From positions 34,149 to 98,148 of the forward strand of contig JBNKTL010000005.1 of the NCBI GenBank assembly GCA_050298055.1: a DNA stretch of 64,000 nucleotides. Direction: 5' to 3'. Under the pieces are notes generated by a model. That model was not told the origin of the DNA. It saw nothing but the letters and a program-made list of their open reading frames with translations, and searched no databases. Source of the stretch: Spirochaetota bacterium. Lineage in GTDB: Bacteria > Spirochaetota > UBA4802 > UBA5550. Shown piece by piece: positions 14,816 to 63,491 of the stretch. The number at the start of each line of letters is the position of its first letter. Position 1 is the stretch's first letter. The position numbers were made by a program, and so were the translations under genes.

Positions 14816-14840
14816 AGAGTTTCCGGTTTATTCGTTGATT

Positions 14841-45723: not shown

Positions 45724-45744
45724 AGAAATTTTATGGAGGAAAAA

Positions 45745-46638: not shown

Positions 46639-46716
46639 ATATGTCTGTAAACGGAGGATAGAATTATTTTCCGATTAAGTTATATATTTTGAAAAAAGAC
46701 CTCAGGAGGTAAATAT

Positions 46717-46932
46717 ATGTCTGAGAAAATAGTCGAGAAGAAGGATTTTTCCGGAAAAACCGTAAAGGTCCTTGATGAAACATATGAGCCGGGTAATCCG
46801 TCTGCTGATAAAGATCAGATAGATAAGTGGCGAAACAAGATAAGAAACAGAGATCAGAACATGAAATTCTTACAGAGTTCTCAGAGGTACTGGTACAGTA
46901 ATGACTGGTATGGAAGCGAAAAGAGAAAATAA
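46717..46932 (+). CDS. small hypothetical protein (71 aa) within the acetyl-CoA pathway cluster
   Basis: ORF with an AGGAGG Shine-Dalgarno. Lys/Asp-rich, Trp/Tyr-rich C-terminus. No family recognised. Confidence 0.3.
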   Translation: MSEKIVEKKDFSGKTVKVLDETYEPGNPSADKDQIDKWRNKIRNRDQNMKFLQSSQRYWYSNDWYGSEKRK

Positions 46933-46960
46933 TTGTCAGGAAACAGGAAGGAGGAACTAA

Positions 46961-47902
46961 ATGGCTTTTGAAATCCCAAAAATTGATTATTCTGGTAAAA
47001 TCAGAGAGATAACATTAGGTACAGGCGACAAGGCTGTTACTGTTGGCGGGGAGACCTGCTATCCGTTCTATACTTTTGAAGGTGAAATGCCCCATCTTCC
47101 GAAGGTCTCAATGGAAGTATGGGACTTTCAACCGGATGACTGGGCGGAGGCAGCAGTTGAGCCTTTTAATGATGTTCTCGGAGACCCGGTGGCATGGGCA
47201 AAGAAGTGCGTAGATGAATACGGAGCTGAGCTCATTACCCTTCAACTCCGAAGTATAGATCCCAATGGCATGAACAGGCCCGCGGAAGAAGCTGCTGATG
47301 TGGCCGCAAAGGTTATCGAAGCGGTTGATGTACCTGTTATTTTATGGGGTGTTGCCTCTCATGAAAAAGATACCGAAGTATTAAGGCTGATTGCTGAAAA
47401 GTGCGAAGGGAAAAACGTATCCCTGGGACCTGTTGAGGAAGGTGATTACAAGCAGATAGGTGCGGGCGCCATAGCGTACAAGCACGTTGTGGTTGCTTCT
47501 TCTCCCATTGACATCAACCTTGCAAAGCAGCTGAACATACTTCTCGGCAACCTGGGAGTTGGAGATGACAAGATCATTGTTGATCCCACCACCGGCGCCC
47601 TGGGCTATGGACTGGAATATTCTTATTCCGTAATGGAGAGGGACAGAATGGCGGCCCTTACACAGGAAGATGAAAAGCTCCAGTATCCGATTATCTGTAA
47701 TGTGGGACTGGAAACATGGAAGGTCAAGGAGTCAAAGATCTCCGAATCCGAAGAGCCCACACTGGGAGACGCAAAAAAGAGAGGAATAATGATAGAGTGC
47801 GTAACGGCAATGTCTGCTCTGCTTGCCGGTGCGGATATCCTTGTCATGCGTCATCCTGAATCTATCAAACTTATTAAGAAGATGATCGACGATCTTGCTT
47901 AG
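46961..47902 (+). CDS. acsD: corrinoid iron-sulfur protein small subunit AcsD
   Basis: Clear collinear similarity to Moorella AcsD: ...AWAKKCVDEYGAELI..., SPIDINLAKQLNIL, DPTTGALGYGLEYSYSVMER, LLAGADILVMRHPE. Confidence 0.85.
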   Translation: MAFEIPKIDYSGKIREITLGTGDKAVTVGGETCYPFYTFEGEMPHLPKVSMEVWDFQPDDWAEAAVEPFNDVLGDPVAWAKKCVDEYGAELITLQLRSIDPNGMNRPAEEAADVAAKVIEAVDVPVILWGVASHEKDTEVLRLIAEKCEGKNVSLGPVEEGDYKQIGAGAIAYKHVVVASSPIDINLAKQLNILLGNLGVGDDKIIVDPTTGALGYGLEYSYSVMERDRMAALTQEDEKLQYPIICNVGLETWKVKESKISESEEPTLGDAKKRGIMIECVTAMSALLAGADILVMRHPESIKLIKKMIDDLA

Positions 47903-47939
47903 TAGAAAATCTATGAGTATTCGTTAGGAGGACAATAAT

Positions 47940-49880: not shown

Positions 49881-49913
49881 GCCGGTTAAAAATACTAGAG
49901 AGGAGGCTAAAAA

Positions 49914-52118: not shown

Positions 52119-52237
52119 ATAATCAGGCAGTACCGGGGATGCCGGAAATTAAGGTATCCCCGGTATTGATAAAACCGTAGAGCGGTTATAATGAGAAAAA
52201 ATAGAAATAAAAGAGAAAAAAAGGAAGGAGATATTAA

Positions 52238-53587
52238 ATGGCACTTACAGGTATAGAAATCTTCAAGCTTTTACCCAAGACAAACTGCGGTGATTGCGGT
52301 GTTCCCACATGTCTCGCGTTTGCAATGAAACTCGCGGCCGGGCAGGCGGAACTTGCGTCATGCCCCCATGTTTCCGAAGAGTCAAAGGCCAAGCTTGATT
52401 CTGCGTCCGCTCCTCCCGTGTTGCCGGTGACAATCGGTACGGGTGACGGGGCATTCAAGACCGGTGGTGAAACGGTCATGTTCAGGCATGAAAAGACCTT
52501 TGTTAATCCCACGGGTATAGCTGTTCTTATAACGGATAAAATGAGCGATGCTGATGTGGAGAAGAGGTTAAAGAATTTTGTTGATCTCCAGTATGACCGC
52601 GTGGGCATGCTTCTGAAAGCCGATCTCATCGCCGTGAAGTCCGAAACCGGTGATGCGGGCGCTTTCGAGGCCCTTATTAATAAGGCCAAAGGGACGGCAA
52701 ATTGCGGACTTATCCTTATGAGCGATAATGCCGATGTCCTGGAGGCAGGGGTTAAGGCATGTGCTGAAACAAAGCCGCTTATTTATGCTGCCACAAAAGA
52801 TAATGTTGAGAAAGTCGGAAACATTGCAAAGGAGAACAAGTGTTCCGTTGCGGTGAAAGGCGCAAATCTTGACGAAGTTATCGAACTGACGGAAAAGCTG
52901 GCAGGCATGGGCCTTAAGGAGATCGTCATAGACTCCGGGGCACGTGAGAAGAAGCAGGCTTTCCGGGACCAGGTAGTCATAAGAAGGGCCGCAATAAAGA
53001 ACACCTTCAGGGCGCTGGGATATCCCACAATCACATTTCCCTGTGAAATGTCAGATGACTTAATGGAAGAAACACTTATCGCTTCCACCTTTATCGCCAA
53101 GTATGGGGGAATATGCGTCATGTCCGACCTTGAAGGTCACAGCCTCTTCCCGCTTCTGGTTGAGAGGATGAACATATTTACCGATCCTCAGAGACCCATG
53201 GCCACGGAAGAAGGAATTTATCCCATTAACAATCCCGATGAAAACTCACCGGTTCTTATCACCACAAATTTCTCTCTTACCTACTTTATTGTTTCCGGTG
53301 AGATTGAAGGAAGCAGGATGCCCTGCTGGCTTCTCATCATGGAAAACGAGGGGCTCTCGGTCCTCACGGCCTGGGCGGCAGGCAAGTTCGTAGCCGATGC
53401 CATTGCTCCCTTTGTGAAAAAGAGCGGAATTGCGGATAAGATCAAACATAAATCACTGGTGATACCGGGATACGCGGCGACAATCAGCGGGGAACTTGAA
53501 GAAGAACTCTCAGACTGGAAAATCGTGATCGGTCCCAGGGAAGCCGCTCATATTCCCGCGTTCCTTAAGGAATTCAAGCCGGAATAG
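52238..53587 (+). CDS. acsC: corrinoid iron-sulfur protein large subunit AcsC
   Basis: N-terminal CGDCGVPTCLAFAMKL [4Fe-4S] motif, TIM-barrel and B12-binding domains. 449 aa. Confidence 0.9.
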   Translation: MALTGIEIFKLLPKTNCGDCGVPTCLAFAMKLAAGQAELASCPHVSEESKAKLDSASAPPVLPVTIGTGDGAFKTGGETVMFRHEKTFVNPTGIAVLITDKMSDADVEKRLKNFVDLQYDRVGMLLKADLIAVKSETGDAGAFEALINKAKGTANCGLILMSDNADVLEAGVKACAETKPLIYAATKDNVEKVGNIAKENKCSVAVKGANLDEVIELTEKLAGMGLKEIVIDSGAREKKQAFRDQVVIRRAAIKNTFRALGYPTITFPCEMSDDLMEETLIASTFIAKYGGICVMSDLEGHSLFPLLVERMNIFTDPQRPMATEEGIYPINNPDENSPVLITTNFSLTYFIVSGEIEGSRMPCWLLIMENEGLSVLTAWAAGKFVADAIAPFVKKSGIADKIKHKSLVIPGYAATISGELEEELSDWKIVIGPREAAHIPAFLKEFKPE

Positions 53588-53615
53588 TCTATTAGAGTAT
53601 TACAGAAGGAGGAAA

Positions 53616-54506
53616 TTGATGTCAAAATTTATTCGTATTGGTGAAAACTTAAACGTCATGTCCAAGGTTCTCGGGCCGGCTATGAAAGAGAGAAATCCCG
53701 GCCCTATCCAGGAGATGGTTAAAAAAGAAGCTGAAAAGGGTGTGGATTATATCGATCTGAATATCGGCCCCGCGCGGAAAGAGGGTGATAAGCTCATGGA
53801 CTGGGTGGTCAATACTGTCCAGGAAGTTACGGATATTCCCCTTTCGCTGGATACAACAAGCCTTGTTGCCATGGAAGCGGGTCTGAAAGCGGCAAAGAAC
53901 AAACCGCTTATCAACTCTGTGACCATGCAGTCTGACAGGCTTGTTCCCGGGCTGGAACTTGCGGCGAAGTACAATGCCGATGTTGTTGCCGTGCTCTGGA
54001 GCGACCAGGGAATGCCCCGGGACACCAACGAGCGCGCAATGCACGTGGTTGATTTCTCTACAAAGGCGGCGGAACTGGGGGTCCCCCTGGAAAATATATG
54101 GTTTGATCCCATTGTCTCGCCAATCAGTGTTGAGGTAAACCAGGTCAAGGCATGTGTTGAGTGTATGGGAATGCTTGCCGATATTGCTCCCGGCTCAAAA
54201 TCAACCGTGGGCCTTTCAAACGTATCCAACGGTGTTCCCGAGGAGCTTCGGCCATGGCTGAATATTACCTATTTGATCATGTTGATGAAAAACGGTCTCT
54301 ATTCTGCCATCGTTGACGCTTTTGATGATGAAATGACTGCATTTGTATCAGGAGAGAAACAGAACATTGTGGATCTCGTGAACAGAATGACAGATGGTGA
54401 AAAAGTTGATATAAATTCACTGAGCGATGTAGAGAAGAAATTTGCCAAGACAGTGAAGGTGCTCACAGGTGAGACTCTCTTCTCTGATTCATGGCTTGAG
54501 GTTTAA
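53616..54506 (+). CDS. acsE: methyltetrahydrofolate:corrinoid iron-sulfur protein methyltransferase AcsE
   Basis: Pterin-binding fold with IGENLNVMSK, LDLNIGP-like, LINSVT and GLSNVS motifs, collinear with Moorella AcsE. Confidence 0.85.
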   Translation: MMSKFIRIGENLNVMSKVLGPAMKERNPGPIQEMVKKEAEKGVDYIDLNIGPARKEGDKLMDWVVNTVQEVTDIPLSLDTTSLVAMEAGLKAAKNKPLINSVTMQSDRLVPGLELAAKYNADVVAVLWSDQGMPRDTNERAMHVVDFSTKAAELGVPLENIWFDPIVSPISVEVNQVKACVECMGMLADIAPGSKSTVGLSNVSNGVPEELRPWLNITYLIMLMKNGLYSAIVDAFDDEMTAFVSGEKQNIVDLVNRMTDGEKVDINSLSDVEKKFAKTVKVLTGETLFSDSWLEV

Positions 54507-54658
54507 TGAACCTGTAGTGTTAAAGATAACGCCTCCGGCCCATCCGTGCCGGGGGCGTATGATATAACTGTTATTATACATAAAAAAGATTTCTGTTATA
54601 ATTTATTTTTCCCTCAAAAAAATAATACTCTCAGTAAATTAGTAGGAGAGGATTCACT

Positions 54659-55315
54659 ATGACGACAATAACCGAAGAGATTAAAAAGGAAGAAAAAGCC
54701 GAAGGTGCCGTTAAACCGGATACGGCGGAGAGGCCCCGGGCAAAATATACCTACAGGCTGAATGAGTACAGATCCTTTGCCGGTGAGATTGCCGGTGCCA
54801 GCGGTGAGCCCATAAACAGCTGCTACCAGTGTAAGAAGTGTTCCAACGGCTGTCCCGTTACCTATGCCATGGACTACCAGCCGCACCAGGTAATAAAGAT
54901 GATGCAGCTGGGACTTGAGGAAAAGGTCCTTTCATCAAAGACCCTGTGGCTCTGTGCCGCCTGTGAAACATGCGGGACGCGGTGTCCCAATGAGATAAAG
55001 CTCGCGGAGATGTTCGATGTCCTCAAACAAAAGGCGGAAAAGTCCGGGTACCGGGTAGGGCATAAAGAAGCTTCCGTATTACACAAAGTCTTTCTCTCTT
55101 CGGTTAAGAAATACGGGCGGGTCCATGAAGTGGGAATGATGAGGCAGTTCATGCTGAAATCAGGAGGGCTCATGGGGAAGTTGTTCAGCGGGGCCCTTTT
55201 CAAAGACGCGATCCTGGGCCTGAAATTTTTCAAGAGGGGCAAACTCTCCCTGTCTGCCCACAGGATCAAGGGTGTGGATGAAGTAAAAAAAATCTTAAAA
55301 GGGGTAGGGAAATAG
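54659..55315 (+). CDS. hdrC: heterodisulfide reductase subunit C-like protein
   Basis: Two CxxCxxC(G)xxP ferredoxin-like motifs (CYQCKKCSNGCP, CAACETCGTRCP) in a 218-aa protein followed by hdrB. Confidence 0.8.
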   Translation: MTTITEEIKKEEKAEGAVKPDTAERPRAKYTYRLNEYRSFAGEIAGASGEPINSCYQCKKCSNGCPVTYAMDYQPHQVIKMMQLGLEEKVLSSKTLWLCAACETCGTRCPNEIKLAEMFDVLKQKAEKSGYRVGHKEASVLHKVFLSSVKKYGRVHEVGMMRQFMLKSGGLMGKLFSGALFKDAILGLKFFKRGKLSLSAHRIKGVDEVKKILKGVGK

Positions 55316-55316
55316 T

Positions 55317-56171
55317 ATGAAAGCTTCTTATTATCCCGGCTGTTCCCTGCACGGAACGGGACTGGAATATGGCGAATCAACAGAGACAGTGTTTAAAGCT
55401 CTCGGAGCGGATCTTGTTGAAATAGATGACTGGAACTGCTGCGGCGCGTCATCGGGCCACAGTGCCGGTAAGAAAATTGCCGTTGAACTGGCGGGAAGAA
55501 ATCTTATGCAGGCTGAAAAGAACGGCTTAAAGGACATGGTGGTCCCCTGTTCCGCGTGCTACCAGAGAACAAAGGTGGCCGAGAATGAAATTGAGAAAGA
55601 CCCGGAATCTTTCCCCGAAGTGAAATATAACGGTGAACTGAAGGTATGGGACATTCTCTCATTCCTCAAAGAAGAAGTGGGATTCGATGCCATAAAATCA
55701 AGGGTACAGAAAAAACTGGAAGGCCTCAGGGCTGTCTGTTACTACGGCTGCCTTACCATGAGGCACCCGGAAATTACGGGAGCAAAGGAATATGAAAATC
55801 CAACGAATATGGAGAAGCTCCTCTCTGTTCTCGGTGTGGAGGTGATAGAGTGGTCCTACAAGACAGACTGCTGCGGGGGCGGACTGGTGCTTTCGAGCCC
55901 GGATGTTGTTTTTGACCTCACCGGGAAGCTTTTTACAAAGGCCCGGGAAGCGGGTGCCCAGTGCCTTGTGACAATATGCCCTCTCTGCCAGGGAAACCTT
56001 GACCAGAGACAGGGCGACGCGGGAGCAAAGCTTAAAACAAAGTTTGATCTTCCGGTGTTCTATATTACCGAGTTGATCGGTCTCGCCCTGGGAGAGAAGG
56101 AGACGGAAAAGTGGCTTAAAAGGCACTTTGTTGACCCTGTAAGACTTCTAAAGTCAAAGGGTCTTTTGTGA
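55317..56171 (+). CDS. hdrB: heterodisulfide reductase subunit B-like protein (two CCG domains)
   Basis: CxxCCGxxxxxxxxxxC...CxxC patterns twice (NCCGASSGH..., DCCGGGLV...). 284 aa. Confidence 0.85.
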   Translation: MKASYYPGCSLHGTGLEYGESTETVFKALGADLVEIDDWNCCGASSGHSAGKKIAVELAGRNLMQAEKNGLKDMVVPCSACYQRTKVAENEIEKDPESFPEVKYNGELKVWDILSFLKEEVGFDAIKSRVQKKLEGLRAVCYYGCLTMRHPEITGAKEYENPTNMEKLLSVLGVEVIEWSYKTDCCGGGLVLSSPDVVFDLTGKLFTKAREAGAQCLVTICPLCQGNLDQRQGDAGAKLKTKFDLPVFYITELIGLALGEKETEKWLKRHFVDPVRLLKSKGLL

Positions 56172-56194
56172 AGGAATAATGAGCTATTTATGAA

Positions 56195-56266
56195 GCCCCT
56201 AACCCCCGGAGGGGGCATAAGAGAGTGTTTGAAAATATCTTGCGCCCCCTGAGGGGGCTGGGGGGA
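56195..56266. repeat. bipartite GC-rich intergenic repeat, family G copy 2
   Basis: GCCCCTAACCCCCGGAGGGGGCATAAGAGAG ... GCCCCCTGAGGGGGCTGGGGGGA. This is near-identical to 18383..18454, except the second hairpin loop is inverted (TGA vs TCA). Confidence 0.65.
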
Positions 56267-56313
56267 TATGCAGCAGTGTATTTGCATAAATAATTTTAAT
56301 CAGGACAATAACT

Positions 56314-59300
56314 ATGACTGAAAAAGATAATGTTGTTCAACTGAATGAGAAGACAGGACCGGGGTCCGGTGTAGGGGCTGTTATGGTGGTCGGCAGCGGT
56401 ATTGCGGGGATGCAGGCAGCCCTTGATCTTGCTAACAGCGGTTTTAAGGTCTACCTCATTGAGAGGGACACGGCAATAGGGGGAAAGATGTCGCAGCTTG
56501 ACAAAACATTCCCAACAAACGACTGCGCAATGTGTGTTATCTCTCCCAAGTTGATTGAAGTTGATAAGAACATTAATATAGATATTATCACAAACTCCGA
56601 GGTCATGGCTGTCGAGGGAAGTGTGGGAGAATTCGAAATTACCGTGAGGGAACACGCGCGGTATGTAGACCTTGACAAGTGTACATCATGCGGCGACTGT
56701 CTTAAGGTCTGTCCCATATCCCTGCCCAACGACTACAACCTCAACCTCAATGAGAAAAACGCCATATACAAAAGATACCCCCAGGGCATCCCCAATGGCT
56801 ATGCCATTGAAAAGGCGGACAGGGCCCCCTGCGGTCTCACCTGTCCCACGGGGATAAACGTGCAGGGGTATGTTGCCCTTGTGGGAGACGGGAAGTTCCG
56901 GGAGGCGTATGATCTCATTACCGAAAGGAACCCTTTCCCCTCTGTATGCGGGCGTGTCTGCCACCATCCCTGTGAGGGAGAGTGTAACAGGGGGGATATT
57001 GACGAACCTGTTGCCATCAACAACCTCAAGAGGTTTACCTCTGACTGGGTAAGAAAGAAGAGGAAAGAGGAAGGATACCAGGTTGAGAAACCGGAAATTG
57101 ATTCCGGTAAGAAGAAGGTCGCCATCGTGGGCGGCGGGCCGGCAGGTCTTACCGCGGCCAGGGACCTTGTTCTCGCGGGATACCCGGTTACTGTTTTTGA
57201 GGCCCGGGAGAAACTGGGCGGCGCAATGAGATACAGTATTCCCCGGTACAGGCTTCCCGAAGAGATGCTCGACTGGGACATTAAAAATATCATCGAACTG
57301 GGGATCGAGGTTAAAACGGAAACGGCACTGGGAAAGGACTTTACCGTTGAGAGCCTCATGCAGGGAGAATTTGGGGCCGTATTTCTCGGTATAGGAGCGC
57401 GGCTGGGAAGCTCATCACGGGCGAAGGGTGAAGAACTGGAAGGCGTCATGCAGGGGATCGATTTTCTCCTGGATGTAAGCCGGGGAAAGGACGTGGATGT
57501 GAAGGGCGGTGATGTCTTTGTTATCGGCGGAGGTAACACGGCCATCGATGCTTCCCGGACAGCACTCCGGCTGGGGGCCAAAAGCGTCACCATCGTCTAC
57601 AGGAGGACCGAGGCTGAGATGCCCGCCCAGGACGAGGAGATCGAGGACGCGAAGGAAGAGGGGATCAGGATCGAGGTTCTCAATGCCCCTGTTGAATATA
57701 TCGGCGAAAACGGCAGGCTGAAGAAGGTCAGGCTCCAGAAGATGGAGCTGGGAGAACCGGACGAGAGCGGCCGGAGAAGACCGGTGCCCGTTGAAGGAAG
57801 TGAATATGAAGTTGATGTTGATTATGTTATTGCCGCCATCGGGCAAAATGTTGATACGGACTGCCTCGACGGCGTGAATACCTCCCGGTGGGGGACCATA
57901 GAAGCGGATGAACTGCTTTTGACCACTAACAGGGAGGGAGTGTTTGCCGGCGGAGACGCCGTTACGGGACCTGCGTCTGTTGTTGAAGCCATCAACCAGG
58001 GACATGAGGCAGCCGAGAGCATCATGAGATTTCTTGAAGGCAGGGACATTGCCCGGGGCCGGGAAAAGCCGGAACAGGAAATGGCCAAAGTCCCGGAGAA
58101 CAGGCCTTACTACAGCAGGGAGAGGTATGAGGCCGGGAAGATCCCCGTTGAAGAGAGAAGGGGGAACTACAATGAAGTGGAACAGACATTTACCGAGGAG
58201 ATGGCGGTGGATGAGGCCAAACGATGTGTTGCCTGCGGCATCTGCTGCGAGTGTTTCCAGTGTGTTATTGCCTGCCTTCCCGGGGCGGTGAACCACGACC
58301 AGGAGACCGTTGACGTAAAATACAAGGTGGGGTCCCTTGTCCTTGCACCCGGATTTGATCTCTTTGACGCTTATAAGAAGCCGGAATACGGATACGGAAG
58401 GTACCGGAACGTCATTACCTCCATGGAGATGGAGAGGACATTCAGCGCGTCCGGGCCGTACCAGGGGCATGTGAAACGGCCCTCTGACAAGACCCTGCCG
58501 CCGAGAATTGCCTGGCTGCAGTGTGTGGGATCAAGAGACGCGTCCATCGGCCGGGAATACTGTTCATCGGTCTGCTGTACCTATGCCACAAAGCAGGCCA
58601 CTCTTGCCAGGGACCACTACAGGGAGAAGGTCAGTGCCACGATTTTTCTCAACGATTTAAGAACATTCGGAAAGGGTTTCGAGCGCTACTACAACAACGC
58701 CGTGGAGAAGTATGGTGTGAGATATGTAAAGAGCTTTATCTCCACCATTAAGGAAGTCCCTGAAACGAAGAACCTTTTGATAACGTATATAAATGAAGAG
58801 GGTAAGCTCACCGAGGAGGAGTTTGACCTTGTTGTCCTCTCCATGGGGCTTGTTCCCTCGAAGACATCCCGGGATCTCGCGGAGAGACTGGAGATCGGGC
58901 TGAACAAGTACGGATTTGTTGAACCGCAGCCCATGAAGCCGGGAGAAACATCCCGGGAGGGGATATTCGTGGCAGGGGCCTTTGAGGCGCCCAAGGACAT
59001 CCCGGAATCGGTCATGAGCGCCAGCAGTGCCGCGGCACTTTCAACGGAGTTTCTCTCAAAGTCCCGGGGTTCCATGGTAACCGGTAAGGAGTACCCCCCG
59101 GAGAAGAAGATAGGCCCTGAAGACGAACCGAGGATAGGGGTGTTTGTCTGTCACTGCGGAGTGAACATAGCGGGTGTTGTTGATGTCCCCAATGTAGTGG
59201 ATTATGCCAAAACAATACCCAATGTGGTGCATGTTGAGAACAACCTCTTCACCTGCTCAAGCGATACCCAGGAGCATCTGAAAGAGGTCATTGAAGAACA

Positions 59301-60792
59301 TAAGCTCAACAGGGTGGTGGTTGCCTCCTGTTCGCCCAGGACCCATGAACCCCTTTTCCAGGAGACAATAAGGGACGCCGGTCTCAACAAGTATCTATTC
59401 GAGATGGCAAATATCCGGGACCAGTGCTCATGGGTCCACGCCACCGAACCGGACCACGCCACCGACAAGGCCAGGGACCTGGTAAGAATGGCCGTATCAC
59501 GATCAAAAACCCTGGAGTCCCTCTACGAGATGCCCTTTAAAGTGAAACAGAACGCCCTGATAATCGGGGGGGGTGTTTCCGGTATGACAGCCGCGGTGGG
59601 CCTTGCAAAGCAGGGTTTTAAATCAGACCTTGTTGAGATATCGGACAGCCTGGGAGGCAACGCGCACCATGTTCATTATACACTTGAAGGTGTGGAGCCG
59701 GGAGCATATCTCCGGGGACTTATTGATGAAGTCAATTCAAATGACCTGATCAATGTCCGCCTGAACACGAGTGTTAAGAGGTACACCGGGCACGTTGGAA
59801 ACTTTACAACGGTTGTGGAAAGCGACGGGAACCAGTTTGAGATTGAACACGGCGCGTATATTGTCGCCACGGGAGGTGTTGAATATCGGCCCCGCGAATA
59901 CATGTACGGGGAAAACGAAAATGTTGTAACGCAGGTGGAACTTGAAGAGAGGATCACCGGCAGCCCCGAAGTGTTCAAGAGCGTACAAACAATTGTTATG
60001 ATACAGTGCGTGGGGTCCCGGGACAGCGAACACCCCTACTGCAGCAGGTACTGCTGTTCCGCCGCGGTGAAAAACGCGCTGAAGCTCAGGGAAATCAACC
60101 CGGAGATGAATATCCATGTCCTTTACCGGGACATCCGTACCTACGGATTTAAGGAACTCTACTATAAAGAGGCACGGGAGAAGGGGATAAACTTCATTAC
60201 CTATGACAAAGATATTAAACCGGAAATAAGCAAAGGGACCGGTTCCCCTCTCTCCGCGGTTGTTTATAATAAGGAGCTTGATGCCGATCTTGAGATCGAT
60301 GCGGATCTCGTTGTACTCAGCGCCGCAATAAGGCCCCATCCGGAGAGCCACAGGATCGTTGAGGCCCTGAAACTCTCAAACGATCCGGACAACTTTTTCC
60401 TTGAGGCCCACATGAAGCTGCGGCCCCTGGATTTTGCCAATATCGGCGTCTTCCTCTGCGGTCTCGCCCATTCGCCAAAGCTCATTGAGGAGAGCATTTC
60501 CCAGGCCAAAGGGGCGGTATCCCGGGCCTGCACGGTCCTCTCCCGGGAGGAGATGATGGTAGGGGGGATCGTCTCACATGTGGATGCGGACAGGTGCGTG
60601 GCCTGTCTTACCTGCATCAGGGTGTGTCCCTATGATGTTCCGGTAATCAACGCGGAGGGTGTTGCCGAGATATCCGAGGCATCGTGCCAGGGCTGCGGAA
60701 ACTGCGCGGCAGCCTGTCCCCGGAAGGCCATTGAGGTCTATCACTATAAAGACAGACAGATAATCAGCAAATGTGAGGTGCTCTTCGCATAG
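56314..60792 (+). CDS. large HdrA-like flavoprotein fusion (HdrA domain - GltD/NfnB-like NAD(P)H-binding domain - second HdrA domain); HdrL-like
   Basis: 1492 aa. N-terminal VVGSGIAGMQAALDLANSGFKVYLIERD FAD site plus a Cys cluster. The middle carries KKVAIVGGGPAGLTAARDL...VIGGGNTAIDASRTALRLGA (glutamate-synthase-small-subunit-like). The C-terminal part repeats the HdrA fold (ALIIGGGVSGMTAAVGLAKQGF, multiple 4Fe-4S CxxCxxCxxxCP). No internal stop. Confidence 0.8.
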   Translation: MTEKDNVVQLNEKTGPGSGVGAVMVVGSGIAGMQAALDLANSGFKVYLIERDTAIGGKMSQLDKTFPTNDCAMCVISPKLIEVDKNINIDIITNSEVMAVEGSVGEFEITVREHARYVDLDKCTSCGDCLKVCPISLPNDYNLNLNEKNAIYKRYPQGIPNGYAIEKADRAPCGLTCPTGINVQGYVALVGDGKFREAYDLITERNPFPSVCGRVCHHPCEGECNRGDIDEPVAINNLKRFTSDWVRKKRKEEGYQVEKPEIDSGKKKVAIVGGGPAGLTAARDLVLAGYPVTVFEAREKLGGAMRYSIPRYRLPEEMLDWDIKNIIELGIEVKTETALGKDFTVESLMQGEFGAVFLGIGARLGSSSRAKGEELEGVMQGIDFLLDVSRGKDVDVKGGDVFVIGGGNTAIDASRTALRLGAKSVTIVYRRTEAEMPAQDEEIEDAKEEGIRIEVLNAPVEYIGENGRLKKVRLQKMELGEPDESGRRRPVPVEGSEYEVDVDYVIAAIGQNVDTDCLDGVNTSRWGTIEADELLLTTNREGVFAGGDAVTGPASVVEAINQGHEAAESIMRFLEGRDIARGREKPEQEMAKVPENRPYYSRERYEAGKIPVEERRGNYNEVEQTFTEEMAVDEAKRCVACGICCECFQCVIACLPGAVNHDQETVDVKYKVGSLVLAPGFDLFDAYKKPEYGYGRYRNVITSMEMERTFSASGPYQGHVKRPSDKTLPPRIAWLQCVGSRDASIGREYCSSVCCTYATKQATLARDHYREKVSATIFLNDLRTFGKGFERYYNNAVEKYGVRYVKSFISTIKEVPETKNLLITYINEEGKLTEEEFDLVVLSMGLVPSKTSRDLAERLEIGLNKYGFVEPQPMKPGETSREGIFVAGAFEAPKDIPESVMSASSAAALSTEFLSKSRGSMVTGKEYPPEKKIGPEDEPRIGVFVCHCGVNIAGVVDVPNVVDYAKTIPNVVHVENNLFTCSSDTQEHLKEVIEEHKLNRVVVASCSPRTHEPLFQETIRDAGLNKYLFEMANIRDQCSWVHATEPDHATDKARDLVRMAVSRSKTLESLYEMPFKVKQNALIIGGGVSGMTAAVGLAKQGFKSDLVEISDSLGGNAHHVHYTLEGVEPGAYLRGLIDEVNSNDLINVRLNTSVKRYTGHVGNFTTVVESDGNQFEIEHGAYIVATGGVEYRPREYMYGENENVVTQVELEERITGSPEVFKSVQTIVMIQCVGSRDSEHPYCSRYCCSAAVKNALKLREINPEMNIHVLYRDIRTYGFKELYYKEAREKGINFITYDKDIKPEISKGTGSPLSAVVYNKELDADLEIDADLVVLSAAIRPHPESHRIVEALKLSNDPDNFFLEAHMKLRPLDFANIGVFLCGLAHSPKLIEESISQAKGAVSRACTVLSREEMMVGGIVSHVDADRCVACLTCIRVCPYDVPVINAEGVAEISEASCQGCGNCAAACPRKAIEVYHYKDRQIISKCEVLFA

Positions 60793-60834
60793 GATGGTGC
60801 TGAAATGGATGATAACTTTAATGTTAAAAAGATT

Positions 60835-60945
60835 GGCCACAGAGGTACATTAAGTTCCAAGTTACGAGTTGAAGACACTGAAAATAAACAAAGAACTTGG
60901 AACCTGGAACCTGGAACTCAAAACTCTATTCATAACCTCTGTGGC
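60835..60945. repeat. nested inverted repeats in the hdrL-mvhD intergenic region
   Basis: Outer arms GGCCACAGAGGT / ACCTCTGTGGC, inner arms GTTCCAAGTT / AACTTGGAAC, plus a TGGAACC TGGAACC TGGAACT triple direct repeat. Confidence 0.55.
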
Positions 60946-61005
60946 AGATTTATAATTTAGATAATAAATACTGATTATGTTTAATAATTTAAGGAGAATG
61001 AGTGA

Positions 61006-61455
61006 ATGAGCACAGATTTTGAACCGAAAATAGCGGCATTTGCCTGTCACTACTGTTCCTATACGGCGGCGGACCTGGCGGGCTCCATGAGGCTTGACTA
61101 TCCCTCTACGGTGCGGATCATCAAGCTTCTCTGCACCGGCCGTGTGGATACTATCCACCTGCTCAAGGCATTCGAAGAAGGCGCTGATGCTGTCTTCGTT
61201 GCCGGATGAGAAGAGGGCGACTGCAATTTCCTGGAAGGAAATTATCGAGCGAAAAACCGCGTTAAATATACAAAGAAGTTACTTGATGAAATAGGGATTG
61301 GCGGAGACCGGCTGGAGATGTACAACATTGGCGCTTCCGAGGGGCCCATGTTTGCCCAGGCGGTAAAGGAGATGACCGAGAAGGCCAGGGAACTGGGCCC
61401 GAGCCCTATTACCAGGAAAAAACACCACGAAGGAGACCAGGGGGACAGAAGATGA
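61006..61455 (+). CDS. mvhD: MvhD-like (methyl-viologen-reducing hydrogenase delta subunit family) protein with in-frame UGA at 61207..61209: candidate selenoprotein
   Basis: ORF 61006..61209 (KIAAFACHYCSYTAADLAG...VFVAG) stops at a TGA exactly where the conserved Cys of the VxGC..GDCH(F/Y) motif lies. The same frame continues as EEGDCNFLEGNYRAKNRV...GIGGDRLEMYNIGASEG to a TGA at 61453..61455. A hairpin (CGA...AATTTCC-TGGAA-GGAAATT...TCG) begins 8-15 nt after the UGA. The sel genes are in this window. Confidence 0.65.
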
Positions 61456-62120
61456 TCGTAGCAAATCGAAAACCCATAGAAGAGATAAAAGAGATGCTCT
61501 CTCCATACAAAAAGATATTACTTGCCGGGTGCGGGACCTGTGTCAGTGTTTGTATGGCCGGGGGTGAAAAAGAGGTGGAGATCCTTGCCAGTGAACTGAG
61601 GATGATATCCGAAATGGAAAACAAAGGCTGGGAGATCACCGAAAAGACCCTGCAGCGCCAGTGCGACAGGGAGTACATTGAACCGTTTAAGGATGATTTT
61701 GACGGAGCGGATATCGTCATGTCCATGGCCTGCGGCGTGGGTGTTCAGTATTCGGCGGAAGTGTTCCCGAAGTCTGTTGTCGTCCCGGCGCTGAATACCA
61801 CATTCTACGGTACCAACCTGGGTGAGGGTGAGTGGTCCGAACGCTGCGCGGGATGCGGAGACTGTGTCCTTGACCAGACACTGGGGATCTGCCCCGTTGC
61901 CCGGTGCTCCAAGGGGCTCTACAACGGGCCCTGCGGCGGGACCGACAAGGGGAAATGCGAGGTGAGCCAGGAGCTTGACTGCGCGTGGTACCTTATCCAT
62001 GAAAGGATGAAGGAACTGGACAGGCTTGACATGATGGGTAAAATCATCGAGCCCAGAAGCTGGAGCTCCAGCCTCAACGGGGGACCCAGAACGAGAATCA
62101 GGGAGGACTTAAAGAAATGA
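61452..62120 (+). CDS. metV: methylenetetrahydrofolate reductase-associated Cys-rich (zinc-ribbon) subunit MetV-like
   Basis: Cys clusters (AGCGTCVSVCMAGG, CAGCGDCVLDQTLGICPVARCSKGLYNGPCGG) typical of the MTHFR C-terminal-like protein encoded upstream of metF in acetogens and deltaproteobacteria. Confidence 0.65.
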   Translation: MIVANRKPIEEIKEMLSPYKKILLAGCGTCVSVCMAGGEKEVEILASELRMISEMENKGWEITEKTLQRQCDREYIEPFKDDFDGADIVMSMACGVGVQYSAEVFPKSVVVPALNTTFYGTNLGEGEWSERCAGCGDCVLDQTLGICPVARCSKGLYNGPCGGTDKGKCEVSQELDCAWYLIHERMKELDRLDMMGKIIEPRSWSSSLNGGPRTRIREDLKK

Positions 62121-63049
62121 AATCAGGCAGTAATTTAGAAAAAGTCTTTGCAAAGGGAGAATTTGCCATAACCGGCGAGCTCGGCCCTCCCAAGGGGAGC
62201 GATGTTGAGGAAGTGAAAAAGAAGGCCGGTATGCTCAAGGGGTTCGTTGACGCGGTCAATATTACTGATAACCAGACTGCGGTGGTGAGGATGTCCAGTA
62301 TCGCCGCTTCAACCATCTGCCTGCAGGAGGGCCTTGAGCCTGTGATGCAGATGGTCTGCCGTGACAGGAACAGGATCGCGATGCAGAGTGACATCCTGGG
62401 CGCTGCCGCCTTTGGTCTCAGAAATATTCTCTGTCTCAGCGGTGACCACCAGTCATTCGGGAACCAGGCCGCCGGCAAAAACGTTTTTGATATAGACTCC
62501 ATACAGCTCATCAGCACGGTAAAGAGGATGCGGGATGAGAAAAAGCTCCTGAACAACGATGATGAACTCATGGGGGGTGCTCCCTTTTTTATCGGGGCGG
62601 CGGCGAATCCCTTCGCGGAGCCCTTTGATTACAGGCCCTACAGGCTCAAAAAGAAGGTCGAGGCGGGCGTGGACTTTATCCAGACGCAGTGCATATACGA
62701 CATGGATATGTTCAGGGAGTATATGAAAAAGGTCGTTGATATGGGACTTCATGAAAAATGCAGGATAATGGCGGGTATTACACCCCTGAAGTCCGCGGGT
62801 ATGACAAAGTATATGGCCAACAGGGTCCCGGGTATCATCATCCCCCAGTCGTATATCGACCGGATGAGCGGTGTCCCCAAGGAAGAGGCCGCCGAAGAAG
62901 GGATCAAGATCTGTATCGAGCAGATGCACCAGATGAAGGAGATCGAGGGTGTGGCCGGTATCCACCTCATGGCCATCGAATGGGAGCACCGTTCCGGTGA
63001 GATCATCGAGAGGGCGGGTTTCCTCCCGCGGCCGGTTTTTGAGAGTTAG
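62117..63049 (+). CDS. metF: 5,10-methylenetetrahydrofolate reductase MetF
   Basis: MTHFR TIM-barrel family (ITGELGPPKG, DFIQTQ...). 310 aa, last gene of the cluster. Confidence 0.85.
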   Translation: MKSGSNLEKVFAKGEFAITGELGPPKGSDVEEVKKKAGMLKGFVDAVNITDNQTAVVRMSSIAASTICLQEGLEPVMQMVCRDRNRIAMQSDILGAAAFGLRNILCLSGDHQSFGNQAAGKNVFDIDSIQLISTVKRMRDEKKLLNNDDELMGGAPFFIGAAANPFAEPFDYRPYRLKKKVEAGVDFIQTQCIYDMDMFREYMKKVVDMGLHEKCRIMAGITPLKSAGMTKYMANRVPGIIIPQSYIDRMSGVPKEEAAEEGIKICIEQMHQMKEIEGVAGIHLMAIEWEHRSGEIIERAGFLPRPVFES

Positions 63050-63083
63050 AGAGGATGTTAAAACAATTTTAATAATATTACGG

Positions 63084-63115
63084 AAGGCGCGGTTTTAAGA
63101 CCGCGCCTTTTTTTA
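63084..63115 (+). terminator. Rho-independent terminator after metF
   Basis: AAGGCGCGGT-TTTAA-GACCGCGCCTT hairpin followed by TTTTTTT. Confidence 0.8.
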
Positions 63116-63491
63116 TAAAAAAGTATTAGTATTTAGGAGGAATTTTTCTGTTTTCCTGTGCTTTTTTGTCAGCTGAAAGTCTCTGAATAAGAAAAAAATT
63201 AGTATTAATCTTGACGTTAGTAGTTTTTTTTACTAATTTTATATTTAATAATGATGTGATGTGATAGTTTTAGTCGGGAATATATAATTAATCTCTAATA
63301 CAAACAAAGCAAATTATAATTTCTCGTATATTCTTACTAAGCATTTGTACGTCCTGTTTAATTTTTGGACACATATGAAAGGACTTTTTTGTATGAAAAG
63401 GTCCTAGTTGTGGATACCGGCTTTTTCTTTTTTAAGGCTTTTTGTATTTTAAACGGGCCTTTGGGTGGAGAAATTTCCTGGGAAAAAATAC

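What the first reader, a model, noticed from the sequence alone, without database searches (positions are those of the whole stretch)
54659..63049. hdrC-hdrB-[GC repeat]-HdrL (HdrA-GltD-HdrA fusion)-mvhD(Sec)-metV-metF appended to the acs cluster
The 1492-aa ORF fuses two HdrA-like flavin/FeS modules around a glutamate-synthase-small-subunit-like NAD(P)H domain. Together with HdrBC, MvhD and MetVF this is the layout proposed for an NADH-dependent, possibly electron-bifurcating methylene-THF reductase complex in Wood-Ljungdahl organisms. Its direct juxtaposition to fhs-cooC-folD-acsDABCE gives a near-complete pathway in one 21-kb stretch. A nested inverted-repeat element (60835..60945) separates hdrL from mvhD.
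Basis: partly seen in the sequence, partly recalled or inferred. Interest (0 to 1): 0.5.

Follow-up and report, generated by a model that had tools for sequence, protein, structure and literature searches.

The report
Hdr-type methylene-THF reductase gene cluster
This is a correctly read but already known kind of gene cluster, the "type IV" heterodisulfide-reductase-linked methylene-tetrahydrofolate reductase first studied in Moorella thermoacetica, sitting next to the acetyl-CoA synthase genes in an uncultured bacterium and carrying a selenocysteine in its MvhD subunit.

Summary
The genes hdrC, hdrB, a 1492-aa hdrA/"hdrL", mvhD with an in-frame TGA, metV and metF lie on the + strand at 54659-63049, directly after fhs-cooC-folD-acsDABCE.

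The giant ORF is real. Identical copies occur in three MAG assemblies. Thousands of homologues of 1450-1550 aa exist across more than ten phyla.

Its anatomy is:
- an HdrA module without the N-terminal domain, whose inserted-ferredoxin domain is split by an NfnB/GltD-like FeS-FAD-NAD(P)H module;
- a second HdrA module with the N-terminal domain but no inserted ferredoxin domain.

Published descriptions of the Moorella thermoacetica HdrA (Moth_1194) of the MetFV-HdrABC-MvhD "type IV" reductase give the same architecture. The cluster is therefore a new member of a known, biochemically unresolved enzyme class.

The mvhD TGA is a selenocysteine codon. Homologues carry Cys or TGA at that position, a conserved SECIS hairpin follows it, and selA, selB and tRNA-Sec are in the window.

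Both intergenic hairpin elements are lineage-specific insertions. The GC element is a dispersed REP-like repeat.

One new detail: the NAD(P)H-binding subdomain is a swapped cassette of NADPH type ("YRR"), whereas the closest relatives carry an NADH-like "SLE" cassette.

The parts
54575..54602 (+). sigma-70-like promoter candidate upstream of hdrC (TATACA-16-TATAAT with TG)
   Evidence: It is a consensus match only, and site counts in the region are not significantly above shuffles. This is an inferred feature.
54659..55315 (+). hdrC-like gene, 218 aa, two [4Fe-4S] motifs (Cys55/58/61/65 and Cys99/102/105/109)
55317..56171 (+). hdrB-like gene, 284 aa, two CCG domains. All ten Cys of the two non-cubane cluster motifs are present: C9-x31-CC-x35-CxxC and C145-x39-CC-x34-CxxC.
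   Evidence: It aligns full-length to methanogen HdrB (9sfi_C, 5odc_B).
56196..56264 (.). GC-rich palindromic REP-like element (two CCCCCnGAGGGGG hairpins)
   Evidence: A second copy lies at about 18380-18446. It is absent from the 81%-identical relative L083, where the hdrB-hdrL gap is 23 nt.
56314..60792 (+). hdrA/hdrL gene, 1492 aa
56314..56838 (+). HdrA module 1, first part (aa 1-175). It holds the FAD Rossmann fold, the DKTFPTNDCAMC motif (Cys71, Cys74 = HdrA Cys197) and the first half of the inserted ferredoxin domain (Cys123/126/129/133). There is no N-terminal HdrA domain.
   Evidence: aa 24-175 align to 5odc_A residues 147-298. Invariant columns.
56821..58269 (+). NfnB/GltD-like insert (aa about 170-652): Fer4_20 FeS domain, FAD site GGGPAG, NAD(P)H site GGGNTAID...IVYRRTEAEMPA
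57316..57933 (+). NAD(P)H-binding subdomain cassette (aa about 335-540). It is mosaic: 41% identical to the closest relative P0002, against 87-88% in the flanks.
58240..59073 (+). HdrA module 1, second part (aa 643 to about 920): second half of the inserted ferredoxin domain, rest of the TrxR-like fold, CVGSRD...CSSVCC cluster, E707/K760
59122..60789 (+). HdrA module 2 (aa 937-1492). It holds the N-terminal FeS domain (Cys946/948/981/1006/1038), a TrxR-like FAD domain without the DKTFPTNDC motif and without an inserted ferredoxin domain, E1211/K1253, and a C-terminal 2x[4Fe-4S] ferredoxin domain.
60836..60945 (.). nested inverted repeat (long hairpin) between hdrL and mvhD, followed by an A/U-rich tract. 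A promoter-like site at 60929-60956 overlaps its 3' arm.
   Evidence: It is absent in L083, L084 and L085 (gaps of 55, 136 and 76 nt). It is identical in L001 and L002.
61006..61455 (+). mvhD gene, 149 aa, selenoprotein
61207..61209 (+). TGA selenocysteine codon (residue 68, VFVAG-U-EEGDC)
   Evidence: Homologues carry Cys (73) or TGA (21) at this position. The residue is X in the solved VhuD chain 9sfi_K at the aligned position.
61225..61243 (+). SECIS-like hairpin AAUUUCCU-GGA-AGGAAAUU, starting 15 nt after the UGA
61452..62120 (+). metV gene, 222 aa; its start overlaps the mvhD stop (ATGA)
62117..63049 (+). metF gene, 310 aa; its start overlaps the metV stop (ATGA)
63082..63118 (+). intrinsic terminator (13-bp GC-rich stem, then U7) that closes the cluster
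   Evidence: -21.2 kcal/mol, z = -4.89.
42674..54506 (+). upstream Wood-Ljungdahl genes: fhs, cooC, folD, a 71-aa ORF, acsD, acsA, acsB, acsC, acsE
   Evidence: The same order occurs in relatives L083 and L084.
10954..14930 (-). selenocysteine machinery: selB (10954-12771), selA (13430-14815), tRNA-Sec (14842-14930)

Best explanation
The region encodes an Hdr-type ('type IV') methylene-tetrahydrofolate reductase. This is the MetF-MetV catalytic core wired through MvhD, a 1492-aa three-flavin HdrA ('HdrL') and HdrCB. The Moorella thermoacetica MetFV-HdrABC-MvhD enzyme is the studied example.

Proposed mechanism (inferred):
1. NAD(P)H, here probably NADPH, reduces the FAD of the NfnB/GltD-like insert.
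2. Electrons pass through that insert's two [4Fe-4S] clusters and the split inserted-ferredoxin domain to the FAD of HdrA module 1.
3. The two HdrA modules of the single chain pack like the HdrA homodimer of methanogens. Cys74 of module 1 completes the FeS cluster of the N-terminal domain of module 2.
4. From the HdrA flavin(s), which carry the E/K signature of bifurcating flavins, one branch runs through the MvhD [2Fe-2S] cluster (one ligand position is selenocysteine) and the MetV FeS clusters to the MetF flavin. There methylene-THF is reduced, or methyl-THF is oxidised when the pathway runs in reverse.
5. The other branch runs to HdrC/HdrB, or to the C-terminal ferredoxin domain, and reaches a second, still unidentified partner. 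Candidates are ferredoxin, menaquinone or a disulfide.

What is shown here: gene content, order, cofactor motifs, the Sec codon, and family-wide conservation. What is inferred: complex formation, which follows Moorella co-enrichment and Sporomusa pull-downs, and all electron paths and the physiological direction.
For: Domain assignments.

Anatomy against solved HdrA (5odc_A) and NfnB-like chains.

Match to the published description of Moorella HdrA: 162.8 kDa, about 1487 aa, an extra ferredoxin plus TrxR-like domain interrupted by GltD, aa 922-1487 forming an HdrA without the inserted ferredoxin domain, E696/K750 and E1204/K1246 (PMC9430772). The window protein has 1492 aa, module 2 from aa 937, and E707/K760 and E1211/K1253.

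Complementary loss of Cys197 and of the N-terminal domain in fused HdrAs, including Moorella's, is described in PMC9012536. The window shows the same complementarity.

Synteny over 50 loci with adequate flanks: mvhD adjacent in 48, metVF within 4 kb in 25, hdrC in 24, hdrB in 21, all five partners in 10.

Identical order folD-acsDABCE-hdrCB-hdrL-mvhD-metVF in relatives of 81% and 70% identity.

ATGA start/stop overlaps mvhD/metV and metV/metF.

One terminator after metF.

All ten HdrB Cys of the non-cubane cluster motifs are present.

Sec evidence.
Against: No member of this family, Moorella included, has been shown to couple NAD(P)H oxidation to methylene-THF reduction. The second substrate has been unknown since 2014.

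Half of the HdrL-MvhD pairs in other genomes lack metVF nearby, so HdrL is not exclusive to this reductase.

I could not fetch the Moorella sequence, so orthology rests on the published description rather than on an alignment made here.

A 213-nt spacer with a strong hairpin and a promoter-like site separates hdrL from mvhD-metVF in this lineage. That would allow separate transcription.
Confidence: 0.8

Rival explanations
1. HdrCB-HdrL-MvhD is an independent NAD(P)H-dependent (con)furcating disulfide or ferredoxin oxidoreductase, for example acting on a DsrC-like thiol/disulfide carrier. It would merely be encoded beside a ferredoxin-dependent type II MetVF, without a physical or electron-transfer link.
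For: HdrL-MvhD occurs without metVF in about half of the loci with adequate flanks, and with hdrCB only in 10 of 50. In Syntrophobacter fumaroxidans an HdrABC/HdrL complex is abundant under sulfate-reducing conditions and is discussed as a DsrC reductant. HdrB retains both complete CCG motifs. A hairpin and a promoter-like site separate hdrL from mvhD-metVF.
Against: mvhD is translationally overlapped with metV, and metV with metF. The HdrL partner MvhD is therefore tied to MetVF rather than to hdrL. The hdrL-mvhD-metVF order recurs across Thermodesulfobacteriota, Chloroflexota, Planctomycetota, Bacteroidota, Bacillota and Spirochaetota. The Moorella subunits co-enrich, and the Sporomusa subunits pull each other down. 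In close relatives the hdrL-mvhD gap is only 55-136 nt.
Confidence: 0.15
2. The 1492-aa ORF is an artefact: two or three genes joined by a frameshift or a chimeric assembly.
For: The identity profile against the closest relative drops sharply in aa 335-540. Taken alone, this could suggest a chimera.
Against: The identical protein is encoded on contigs of independent assemblies GCA_050292195.1 and GCA_050291225.1 as well as on the 141-kb contig. The top 120 homologues are all 1456-1551 aa and cover 97-100% of the query. 599 genome loci encode full-length relatives. Cultured Desulfotomaculum-group genomes encode it as well. The mosaic segment stays in frame and keeps every cofactor motif.
Confidence: 0.01
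3. The TGA in mvhD is a true stop. mvhD would then be a pseudogene, or a 67-aa truncated product as annotated in the public MAG records.
For: Gene callers split the gene into 67-aa and 45-aa ORFs.
Against: The frame stays open, and the full 149-aa product matches FlpD end to end at E 1e-47. The aligned residue is Cys in 73 homologues and TGA in 21. The solved VhuD chain 9sfi_K has a non-standard residue (X) at that position. A hairpin in fixed register follows the TGA: at least 7 bp in 16 of 22 TGA genes against 3 of 74 Cys genes. A TTC-to-TAC change is compensated by a synonymous GGA-to-GGT change. selA, selB and tRNA-Sec are in the same window.
Confidence: 0.03

Closest known systems
Moorella thermoacetica MetFV-HdrABC-MvhD (type IV / Hdr-type methylene-THF reductase; Mock et al. 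2014, as described in PMC9430772, PMC8760232, PMC5861303)
   Same: The six gene products are the same. The large HdrA has the same architecture as published: about 1490 aa, a TrxR-like module interrupted by GltD, then an HdrA lacking the inserted ferredoxin domain. The E/K signature is present in both TrxR-like domains. [quoted passage not shown]
   Different: MvhD carries selenocysteine here. The nucleotide motif here is the NADPH type, whereas the Moorella protein was reported to oxidise NADH. Two lineage-specific hairpin elements sit in the intergenic regions. The host is an uncultured non-Bacillota MAG.
Sporomusa ovata HdrCBA-MvhD-MetVF (PMC9430772)
   Same: [quoted passage not shown]
   Different: The S. 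ovata HdrA is 101 kDa and has no GltD/NAD(P)H module. Only one of its flavin sites carries the E/K signature. It is partly membrane-associated.
HdrL1-3 / MvhD of Desulfobacterium autotrophicum HRM2 (PMC2702500)
   Same: It is defined as a large HdrA-glutamate-synthase fusion followed by mvhD. Sec occurs in HdrL1, HdrL3 and four MvhD paralogues. The organism uses the Wood-Ljungdahl pathway.
   Different: There the proteins were discussed as NADH-to-sulfite/DsrC electron routes, not as part of MetF. The 2009 claim that HdrL is unique to that organism no longer holds. The window HdrL has Cys, not Sec.
Methanogen HdrABC-MvhAGD / Vhu (PDB 5odc, 8rvu, 9sfi, 7bkb)
   Same: The HdrA, HdrB, HdrC and MvhD folds and cluster motifs are shared. 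Sec in VhuD lies at the same aligned position (9sfi_K).
   Different: There is no hydrogenase or formate dehydrogenase module here. The HdrA homodimer is replaced by one chain with two complementary modules. The ferredoxin-binding inserted domain is interrupted by an NfnB-like module.
NfnB / StnC / GltD-type NADPH-FAD-FeS modules (PDB 4ylf_B, 5jca_L, 8oh5_C, 9n5u_A, 9bov_A)
   Same: The middle 480 aa match. The FeS, FAD and NADPH motifs are the same, including IVYRRTxxEMPA.
   Different: Here the module is an insertion in HdrA, not a free subunit or a fusion to a formate dehydrogenase. No NfnA-like partner is present.
ANME-1 HdrA9-11 with NfnB insertion, and fused HdrA3/4 (PMC9012536)
   Same: A 500-aa NfnB-like insertion in the inserted ferredoxin domain, and tandem HdrA fusion with complementary Cys197 and N-terminal domain.
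   Different: The window protein combines both features in one chain. Its module order is reversed relative to ANME HdrA3/4: the Cys197-bearing module comes first.

Membership tests
Type IV (Hdr-type) methylene-THF reductase gene cluster | metF and metV adjacent and co-oriented | tested here: met
   Pfam MTHFR (E 1e-40) and MTHFR_C/DUF5981 (E 3e-34). ATGA overlap.
Type IV (Hdr-type) methylene-THF reductase gene cluster | hdrC, hdrB, hdrA and mvhD in the same cluster as metVF | tested here: met
   All six genes lie on the + strand between a promoter-like site and a single terminator.
Type IV (Hdr-type) methylene-THF reductase gene cluster | Moorella-type large HdrA: an extra TrxR-like module interrupted by GltD, plus an HdrA lacking the inserted ferredoxin domain | tested here: met
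   Anatomy, compared with the published description. There is no direct alignment to Moth_1194, because that sequence could not be fetched.
Type IV (Hdr-type) methylene-THF reductase gene cluster | E/K signature of bifurcating flavin (M. thermolithotrophicus E356/K409) in the TrxR-like domains | tested here: met
   E707 and K760 are invariant. E1211 is invariant, and K1253 is present in 12 of 14 aligned homologues.
Type IV (Hdr-type) methylene-THF reductase gene cluster | physical complex, NAD(P)H:viologen activity and viologen:methylene-THF activity | not testable with these tools
   These are biochemical properties, known only for Moorella and Sporomusa.
Canonical methanogen HdrA | a single chain with N-terminal domain, TrxR-FAD domain with Cys197, an intact inserted ferredoxin domain and a C-terminal ferredoxin domain | tested here: not met
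   The features are split over two modules. Module 1 has Cys74 (= Cys197) but no N-terminal or C-terminal ferredoxin domain, and its inserted domain is interrupted. Module 2 has the N-terminal and C-terminal domains but neither Cys197 nor the inserted domain.
NfnB/GltD-like NADPH flavoprotein module | Fer4_20 FeS domain, a FAD GxGxxG site, and a second Rossmann fold GGGNxAxD followed by YRR(S/T)xxEMPA | tested here: met
   The motif is identical in type to 4ylf_B, 5jca_L, 8oh5_C, 9n5u_A and 9bov_A.
NfnB/GltD-like NADPH flavoprotein module | actual NADPH (as opposed to NADH) specificity | not testable with these tools
   This is a motif-based inference only. The only tested relative (Moorella) was reported to oxidise NADH.
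MvhD/VhuD selenoprotein | full-length FlpD domain with an in-frame UGA at a position that is Cys in homologues | tested here: met
MvhD/VhuD selenoprotein | SECIS hairpin downstream of the UGA, and Sec machinery in the genome | tested here: met
   Hairpin at 61225-61243. At least 7 bp in 16 of 22 TGA genes against 3 of 74 Cys genes. A compensatory change is seen. selA, selB and tRNA-Sec are present.
MvhD/VhuD selenoprotein | selenium actually incorporated | not testable with these tools
   This needs 75Se labelling or mass spectrometry.
HdrB (CCG-domain disulfide reductase subunit) | two CX31-39CCX35-36CXXC motifs for non-cubane [4Fe-4S] clusters | tested here: met
   C9/41/42/78/81 and C145/185/186/221/224. 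The second spacer is 34 rather than 35-36 residues.
HdrL of Desulfobacterium autotrophicum | a large HdrA / glutamate-synthase-small-subunit fusion with an NAD(P)H site, followed by mvhD | tested here: met
   Met by definition. The D. autotrophicum sequences themselves were not aligned.

The most novel reading that the evidence does not exclude
The nucleotide specificity of the Hdr-type methylene-THF reductase may be a swappable cassette. The window's HdrL is 87-88% identical to its nearest relative outside aa 335-540 but only 41% identical inside that segment. The window carries the NADPH-type 'YRR' motif, whereas its five closest relatives carry an NADH-like 'SLE' motif. On this reading the organism runs its methylene-THF step on NADPH, and lineages toggle between NADH and NADPH by recombinational replacement of a subdomain of about 200 aa. 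If so, the choice of pyridine nucleotide, and hence the thermodynamics of the unresolved bifurcation, varies between otherwise near-identical enzymes.
Probability: 0.4. Interest if true: 0.45.

Novelty: new member of a known kind. Interest (0 to 1): 0.3.

Why it matters
The type IV methylene-THF reductase is the least understood step of the Wood-Ljungdahl pathway. Its second electron partner has been unknown since 2014 and was still debated in 2026. This window does not resolve that question.

It does show three things:
- The Moorella-type 1490-aa three-flavin HdrA is not a curiosity. It is a very widespread protein, poorly annotated as 'glutamate synthase', 'YgfK' or 'FAD-dependent oxidoreductase'. 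It is found in more than ten phyla and is nearly always paired with MvhD.
- Sec/Cys alternation occurs at two FeS-ligand positions, one in MvhD and one at HdrA Cys197.
- NADPH-type and NADH-type nucleotide cassettes alternate even among close relatives. Anyone choosing a homologue for biochemistry or cryo-EM should take this into account.

It also flags a recurrent annotation error: mvhD is split at the Sec codon in the public MAG records.

Tried and rejected
1. Frameshift or misassembly of the 1492-aa ORF: rejected.

2. TGA as a true stop: rejected.

3. Known RNA families in the intergenic elements. Rfam at gathering threshold found only tRNA-Sec elsewhere in the window. An E-value scan of 54400-64000 found only two sub-threshold sRNA matches lying over the metF terminator. 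No known riboswitch or RNA family explains the hairpins.

4. Is the 60836-60945 hairpin a widespread mobile element? A metagenome scan for its 11-nt arms with a 75-100 nt gap gave 62 loci. These belong to a different family with arms built of tandem CACAGAG 9-mers. They share only the terminal 11-mer, and inner identity to the window element is 50-66%, about chance level. No relatives of the window element were found, and it is absent from the closest relatives.

5. The promoter and terminator consensus scan was not significantly enriched. It also missed the obvious terminator after metF, which I confirmed by reading and folding.

6. Attempt to fetch the Moorella HdrA. A second protein search seeded with the Desulfotruncus arcticus homologue returned many cultured Desulfotomaculum-group proteins but not Moorella among the best 120. 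The Mock et al. 2014 paper is not held.

7. Taxonomy of the source. Cluster look-ups gave no organism names. The only hint is that the nearest named HdrL relatives are Spirochaetes/Spirochaetota (66%, 55%) and Leptospirales (58%) MAGs.

8. No solved structure exists for MetV or for any MetFV-Hdr complex. Structure prediction of the whole HdrL was not attempted, because it exceeds the 1200-aa limit.

Full report
OBSERVATION

The Pfam and NCBIfam assignments are as follows.

- 54659-55315 is an HdrC-like 2x[4Fe-4S] protein.
- 55317-56171 is an HdrB-like protein with two CCG domains.
- 56314-60792 is a 1492-aa protein. It hits HdrA models (NF040770, 944 bits; NF041778, 721 bits) and GltD/NfnB-type models (PRK12771, PRK12814, gltA).
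- 61452-62120 is MetV (MTHFR_C/DUF5981).
- 62117-63049 is MetF.
- The mvhD frame 61006-61455 contains one in-frame TGA at 61207-61209. With Cys substituted it matches FlpD end to end (E 1e-47).

Upstream lie fhs, cooC, folD, a conserved 71-aa ORF, acsD, acsA, acsB, acsC and acsE. The stretch 42674-63049 therefore holds the Wood-Ljungdahl pathway apart from formate dehydrogenase.

Both intergenic repeats exist. They fold much better than shuffled sequence, with z = -4.06 and -3.08.

IS THE 1492-aa ORF REAL?

Yes, on four grounds.

- The identical protein is on record from NCBI on four contigs; those read include GCA_050292195.1 and GCA_050291225.1, and the longest is 141 kb.
- A protein search returned 7996 hits at E < 1e-20. 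The best 120 were all 1456-1551 aa and covered 97-100% of the query at 54-81% identity.
They come from Thermodesulfobacteriota, Chloroflexota, Bacillota, Planctomycetota, Acidobacteriota, Spirochaetota, Bacteroidota, Armatimonadota, Gemmatimonadota, Nitrospinota-like and even archaeal MAGs.
- Cultured Desulfotomaculum-group species encode it as well, often twice per genome. There it is annotated as 'glutamate synthase beta chain', 'YgfK' or 'FAD-dependent oxidoreductase'.

ANATOMY OF THE GIANT PROTEIN

I mapped the protein against the solved M. thermolithotrophicus HdrA, chain 5odc_A, 654 aa.

- aa 24-175 align to HdrA 147-298. This is the start of the FAD fold, the DKTFPTNDCxxC motif and the first ferredoxin motif of the inserted domain.
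- aa 643-857 align to HdrA 292-506.
- aa 937-1091 align to HdrA 2-156, the N-terminal FeS domain.
- aa 1348-1491 align to HdrA 504-650, the C-terminal ferredoxin domain.
- aa 170-652 match NfnB-like modules. The E-values are 1e-128 to 1e-90 for 9bov_A, 9n5u_A, 8oh5_C, 4ylf_B and 5jca_L.

The chain therefore has three parts:

- HdrA module 1. It has no N-terminal domain. Its inserted ferredoxin domain is split open by a complete NfnB/GltD-type FeS-FAD-NAD(P)H unit.
- A short linker.
- HdrA module 2. It has the N-terminal and C-terminal ferredoxin domains. It lacks the inserted ferredoxin domain and the DKTFPTNDC motif.

Conservation across homologues supports this reading. Cys74 aligns with HdrA Cys197, and the N-terminal-domain cysteines 946, 948, 981 and 1006 are invariant in 14 diverse homologues. 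The E/K pair used in the literature to mark bifurcating HdrA flavins is present in both modules. E707 and K760 are invariant. E1211 is invariant, and K1253 is present in 12 of 14.

COMPARISON WITH WHAT IS KNOWN

Kremp et al. 2022 (PMC9430772) describe the M. thermoacetica HdrA of the MetFV-HdrABC-MvhD enzyme. It is 162.8 kDa. Its N terminus holds an extra ferredoxin domain and an extra TrxR-like domain interrupted by a GltD domain with FeS, FAD and NAD(P)H sites. Its residues 922-1487 form an HdrA without the inserted ferredoxin domain. It has three FAD sites, and the E/K residues lie at 696/750 and 1204/1246.

The window protein matches this description point for point, with offsets of 5-15 residues.

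Chadwick et al. 2022 (PMC9012536) had already described two related features. One is the complementary loss of Cys197 and of the N-terminal domain in fused HdrAs, including Moorella's. The other is a 500-aa NfnB-like insertion in the inserted ferredoxin domain of ANME-1 HdrAs.

'HdrL' was coined in 2009 for HdrA-glutamate-synthase fusions followed by mvhD in Desulfobacterium autotrophicum. Some of those proteins contain Sec (PMC2702500).

Oppinger et al. classify the MetVF+HdrCBA+MvhD arrangement as type IV MTHFR (PMC8760232).

The class remains mechanistically open. In Moorella, HdrA oxidises NADH and MetF reduces methylene-THF with viologens. The coupled reaction was never observed. The second partner is still unknown, and ferredoxin, quinone and confurcation with menaquinol have all been proposed. 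No structure of MetV or of any such complex is in the PDB copy searched.

GENOMIC CONTEXT ELSEWHERE

I surveyed 50 fetched loci that had enough flanking DNA.

- mvhD lies next to hdrL in 48.
- metVF lies within 4 kb in 25.
- hdrC lies nearby in 24 and hdrB in 21.
- All five partners are present in 10.
- hdrCB is present without metVF in 10.

The two closest relatives (81% and 70% identity) have the window's exact order: folD, small ORF, acsDABCE, hdrCB, hdrL, mvhD, metVF. A Planctomycetaceae MAG has fhs-folD-hdrCB-hdrL-mvhD-metVF.

HdrL-MvhD is therefore the conserved core. MetVF is its commonest partner but not its only one. This keeps alive a rival reading in which HdrCB-HdrL-MvhD is an independent oxidoreductase.

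Three points argue against that rival here. The mvhD stop overlaps the metV start, and the metV stop overlaps the metF start, each as ATGA. One strong terminator follows metF, at -21.2 kcal/mol and z = -4.89. Published co-enrichment and pull-down data link the subunits.

SELENOCYSTEINE

The evidence that mvhD is a selenoprotein gene is as follows.

- The aligned residue is Cys in 73 MvhD homologues and TGA in 21 across the fetched loci.
- The best PDB match, the VhuD chain 9sfi_K, has a non-standard residue (X) at that aligned position.
- A hairpin, AAUUUCCU-GGA-AGGAAAUU, starts 15 nt after the UGA.
- In the same register, 16 of 22 distinct TGA-bearing genes have at least 7 contiguous pairs, against 3 of 74 Cys-encoding genes.
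- Where Phe (UUC) becomes Tyr (UAC) in the 5' arm, the Gly codon in the 3' arm changes synonymously from GGA to GGU. This keeps the pair.
- selB, selA and tRNA-Sec lie at 10954-14930 on the minus strand.

The public MAG annotation splits mvhD into 67-aa and 45-aa ORFs. That annotation is wrong.

About 20 fetched copies, mostly from Desulfobacterales-type MAGs, have TGA at the position of Cys74, in the motif FPTNDCAM-U. An almost invariant sequence, AAACUGGUCGAGGUCGGCCGGCA, follows the TGA in these copies. The window's HdrL has Cys at that position.

After the second Rossmann motif GGGNTAID, the window protein reads VTIVYRRTEAEMPA. All solved NfnB-like relatives have the same motif. They bind NADPH, which is established knowledge for NfnB and GltD. 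In this flavoprotein superfamily, paired arginines at the end of this strand bind the 2'-phosphate.

The five closest relatives (70-81% overall identity) instead read IVSLECREEMPA. They have a glutamate at that place, which is the classical NADH-type signature.

Sliding-window identity to the nearest relative is 85-97% over most of the protein. It falls to 32-52% in aa 331-540. By BLASTP this segment is 41% identical, against 87-88% for the flanks. It is no closer than 54% to any of the 120 best homologues.

Across 91 copies in the fetched loci, 59 are YRR type, 26 are [C/S]LE type and 6 are other types. Both main types occur next to metVF.

I infer that the NAD(P)H-binding subdomain has been exchanged by recombination, and that this copy probably prefers NADPH. 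Specificity was not and cannot be tested here. The only assayed relative (Moorella) was reported to use NADH.

INTERGENIC ELEMENTS

The GC repeat at 56196-56264 is a palindromic element of about 70 nt. A second, closely similar copy sits at about 18380-18446, in an unrelated intergenic region between a NuoG-N-like ORF and an ABC ATPase. I interpret it as a dispersed REP-like repeat.

The relative L083 has only 23 nt between hdrB and hdrL and 55 nt between hdrL and mvhD. Both elements are therefore insertions specific to the window's lineage. They are identical in the two other assemblies of that lineage.

The 60836-60945 hairpin is followed by an A/U-rich tract, and a promoter-like site overlaps it. 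It could attenuate or partition transcription between hdrL and mvhD-metVF. That is conjecture.

No Rfam family matches either element. A metagenome scan found no true relatives of the hairpin.

MECHANISM (inferred)

1. NAD(P)H reduces the FAD of the NfnB-like module.
2. Electrons pass through that module's two [4Fe-4S] clusters and the split inserted-ferredoxin domain to the FAD of HdrA module 1.
3. The two HdrA modules form an intramolecular pseudo-dimer, bridged by Cys74 and the N-terminal-domain cluster of module 2.
4. One branch goes through the MvhD [2Fe-2S] cluster, which has a Sec at one cluster-motif position, then through the MetV clusters to the MetF flavin and methylene-THF.
5. The other branch goes to HdrC/HdrB, whose two non-cubane cluster motifs are complete, or to the C-terminal ferredoxin domain. 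From there it reaches a second partner that remains unidentified.

The in vivo direction, reductive or oxidative, cannot be told from the window.

VERDICT

The feature is a new member of a known kind, the type IV / Moorella-type Hdr-linked methylene-THF reductase cluster attached to the acs cluster.

Points of modest added value:
- the precise domain topology;
- the very wide distribution and poor annotation of the family;
- the Sec/Cys alternation at two sites;
- the mis-annotated mvhD;
- the NADPH-type cofactor cassette, which appears to have been swapped relative to the closest relatives.

Noticed in passing
window 57316-57933 (HdrL aa 335-540): The NAD(P)H-binding subdomain is mosaic. It is 41% identical to the nearest relative, against 87-88% in the flanks. 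The window has the NADPH-type 'YRR' motif, whereas the five closest relatives have 'SLE'. This points to replacement of a cofactor cassette by recombination.
   Followed up: partly
window 10954-14930 (- strand): selB (10954-12771), selA (13430-14815) and tRNA-Sec (14842-14930, Rfam 73 bits) are clustered about 46 kb upstream of the Sec-containing mvhD.
   Followed up: yes
window 18380-18446: A second copy of the GC-rich palindromic element found between hdrB and hdrL. It lies in the intergenic region between a NuoG-N-terminal-like ORF (17727-18371) and an ABC ATPase ORF (18506-19120). I interpret both copies as a dispersed REP-like repeat.
   Followed up: partly
L001 5745-6194 and L002 5720-6169 (public MAG records of the same region): The deposited gene calls split mvhD into a 67-aa ORF and a 45-aa ORF at the Sec codon. 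L083 and L084 show the same 67-aa truncation.
   Followed up: yes
L017, L019, L024, L028, L030, L032, L033, L038, L039, L044, L046, L058, L067, L068, L074, L075, L077 (HdrL position 74): HdrL homologues, mostly from Desulfobacterales-type MAGs, have TGA in place of Cys74 (HdrA Cys197 equivalent). A nearly invariant AAACTGGTCGAGGTCGGCCGGCA follows the TGA and is a likely SECIS.
   Followed up: partly
L085 14556-14969: The Spirochaetes-MAG MvhD encodes Cys (TGC) but keeps a 7-bp hairpin in the SECIS register. This may be a recent Sec-to-Cys conversion.
   Followed up: no
window 46717-46932: A 71-aa ORF between folD and acsD has no Pfam match. It is conserved (69% identity) at the same position in relative L084 and is present in L083. 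It looks like an uncharacterised small protein of the acs cluster.
   Followed up: partly
window 2578-8268: A 1896-aa ORF with no Pfam match at E <= 1e-5.
   Followed up: no
window 15784-18371: A NuoF-like ORF (FMN and FeS domains plus a C-terminal ferredoxin motif) and a short NuoG-N-terminal-like ORF (2Fe-2S) lie adjacent. They may form the NAD(P)H module of a bifurcating hydrogenase or formate dehydrogenase. Relatives L083 and L084 have NuoE/F-like genes and an NfnB-fused molybdopterin oxidoreductase downstream of metF.
   Followed up: no
L086-L147 (metagenome contigs): A widespread family of inverted repeats of about 100-120 nt. Their arms are tandem 9-mers ending in CACAGAG (GCCACAGAG GTCACAGAG AACACAGAG ... 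mirrored). Several copies occur per assembly, for example in the LNFM01 contigs. The family is unrelated to the window element apart from the terminal 11-mer.
   Followed up: no
window 63082-63118 and 63050-64000: A strong intrinsic terminator follows metF. After it comes a stretch of about 900 nt at 32-36% GC with no ORF of 100 aa or more.
   Followed up: partly
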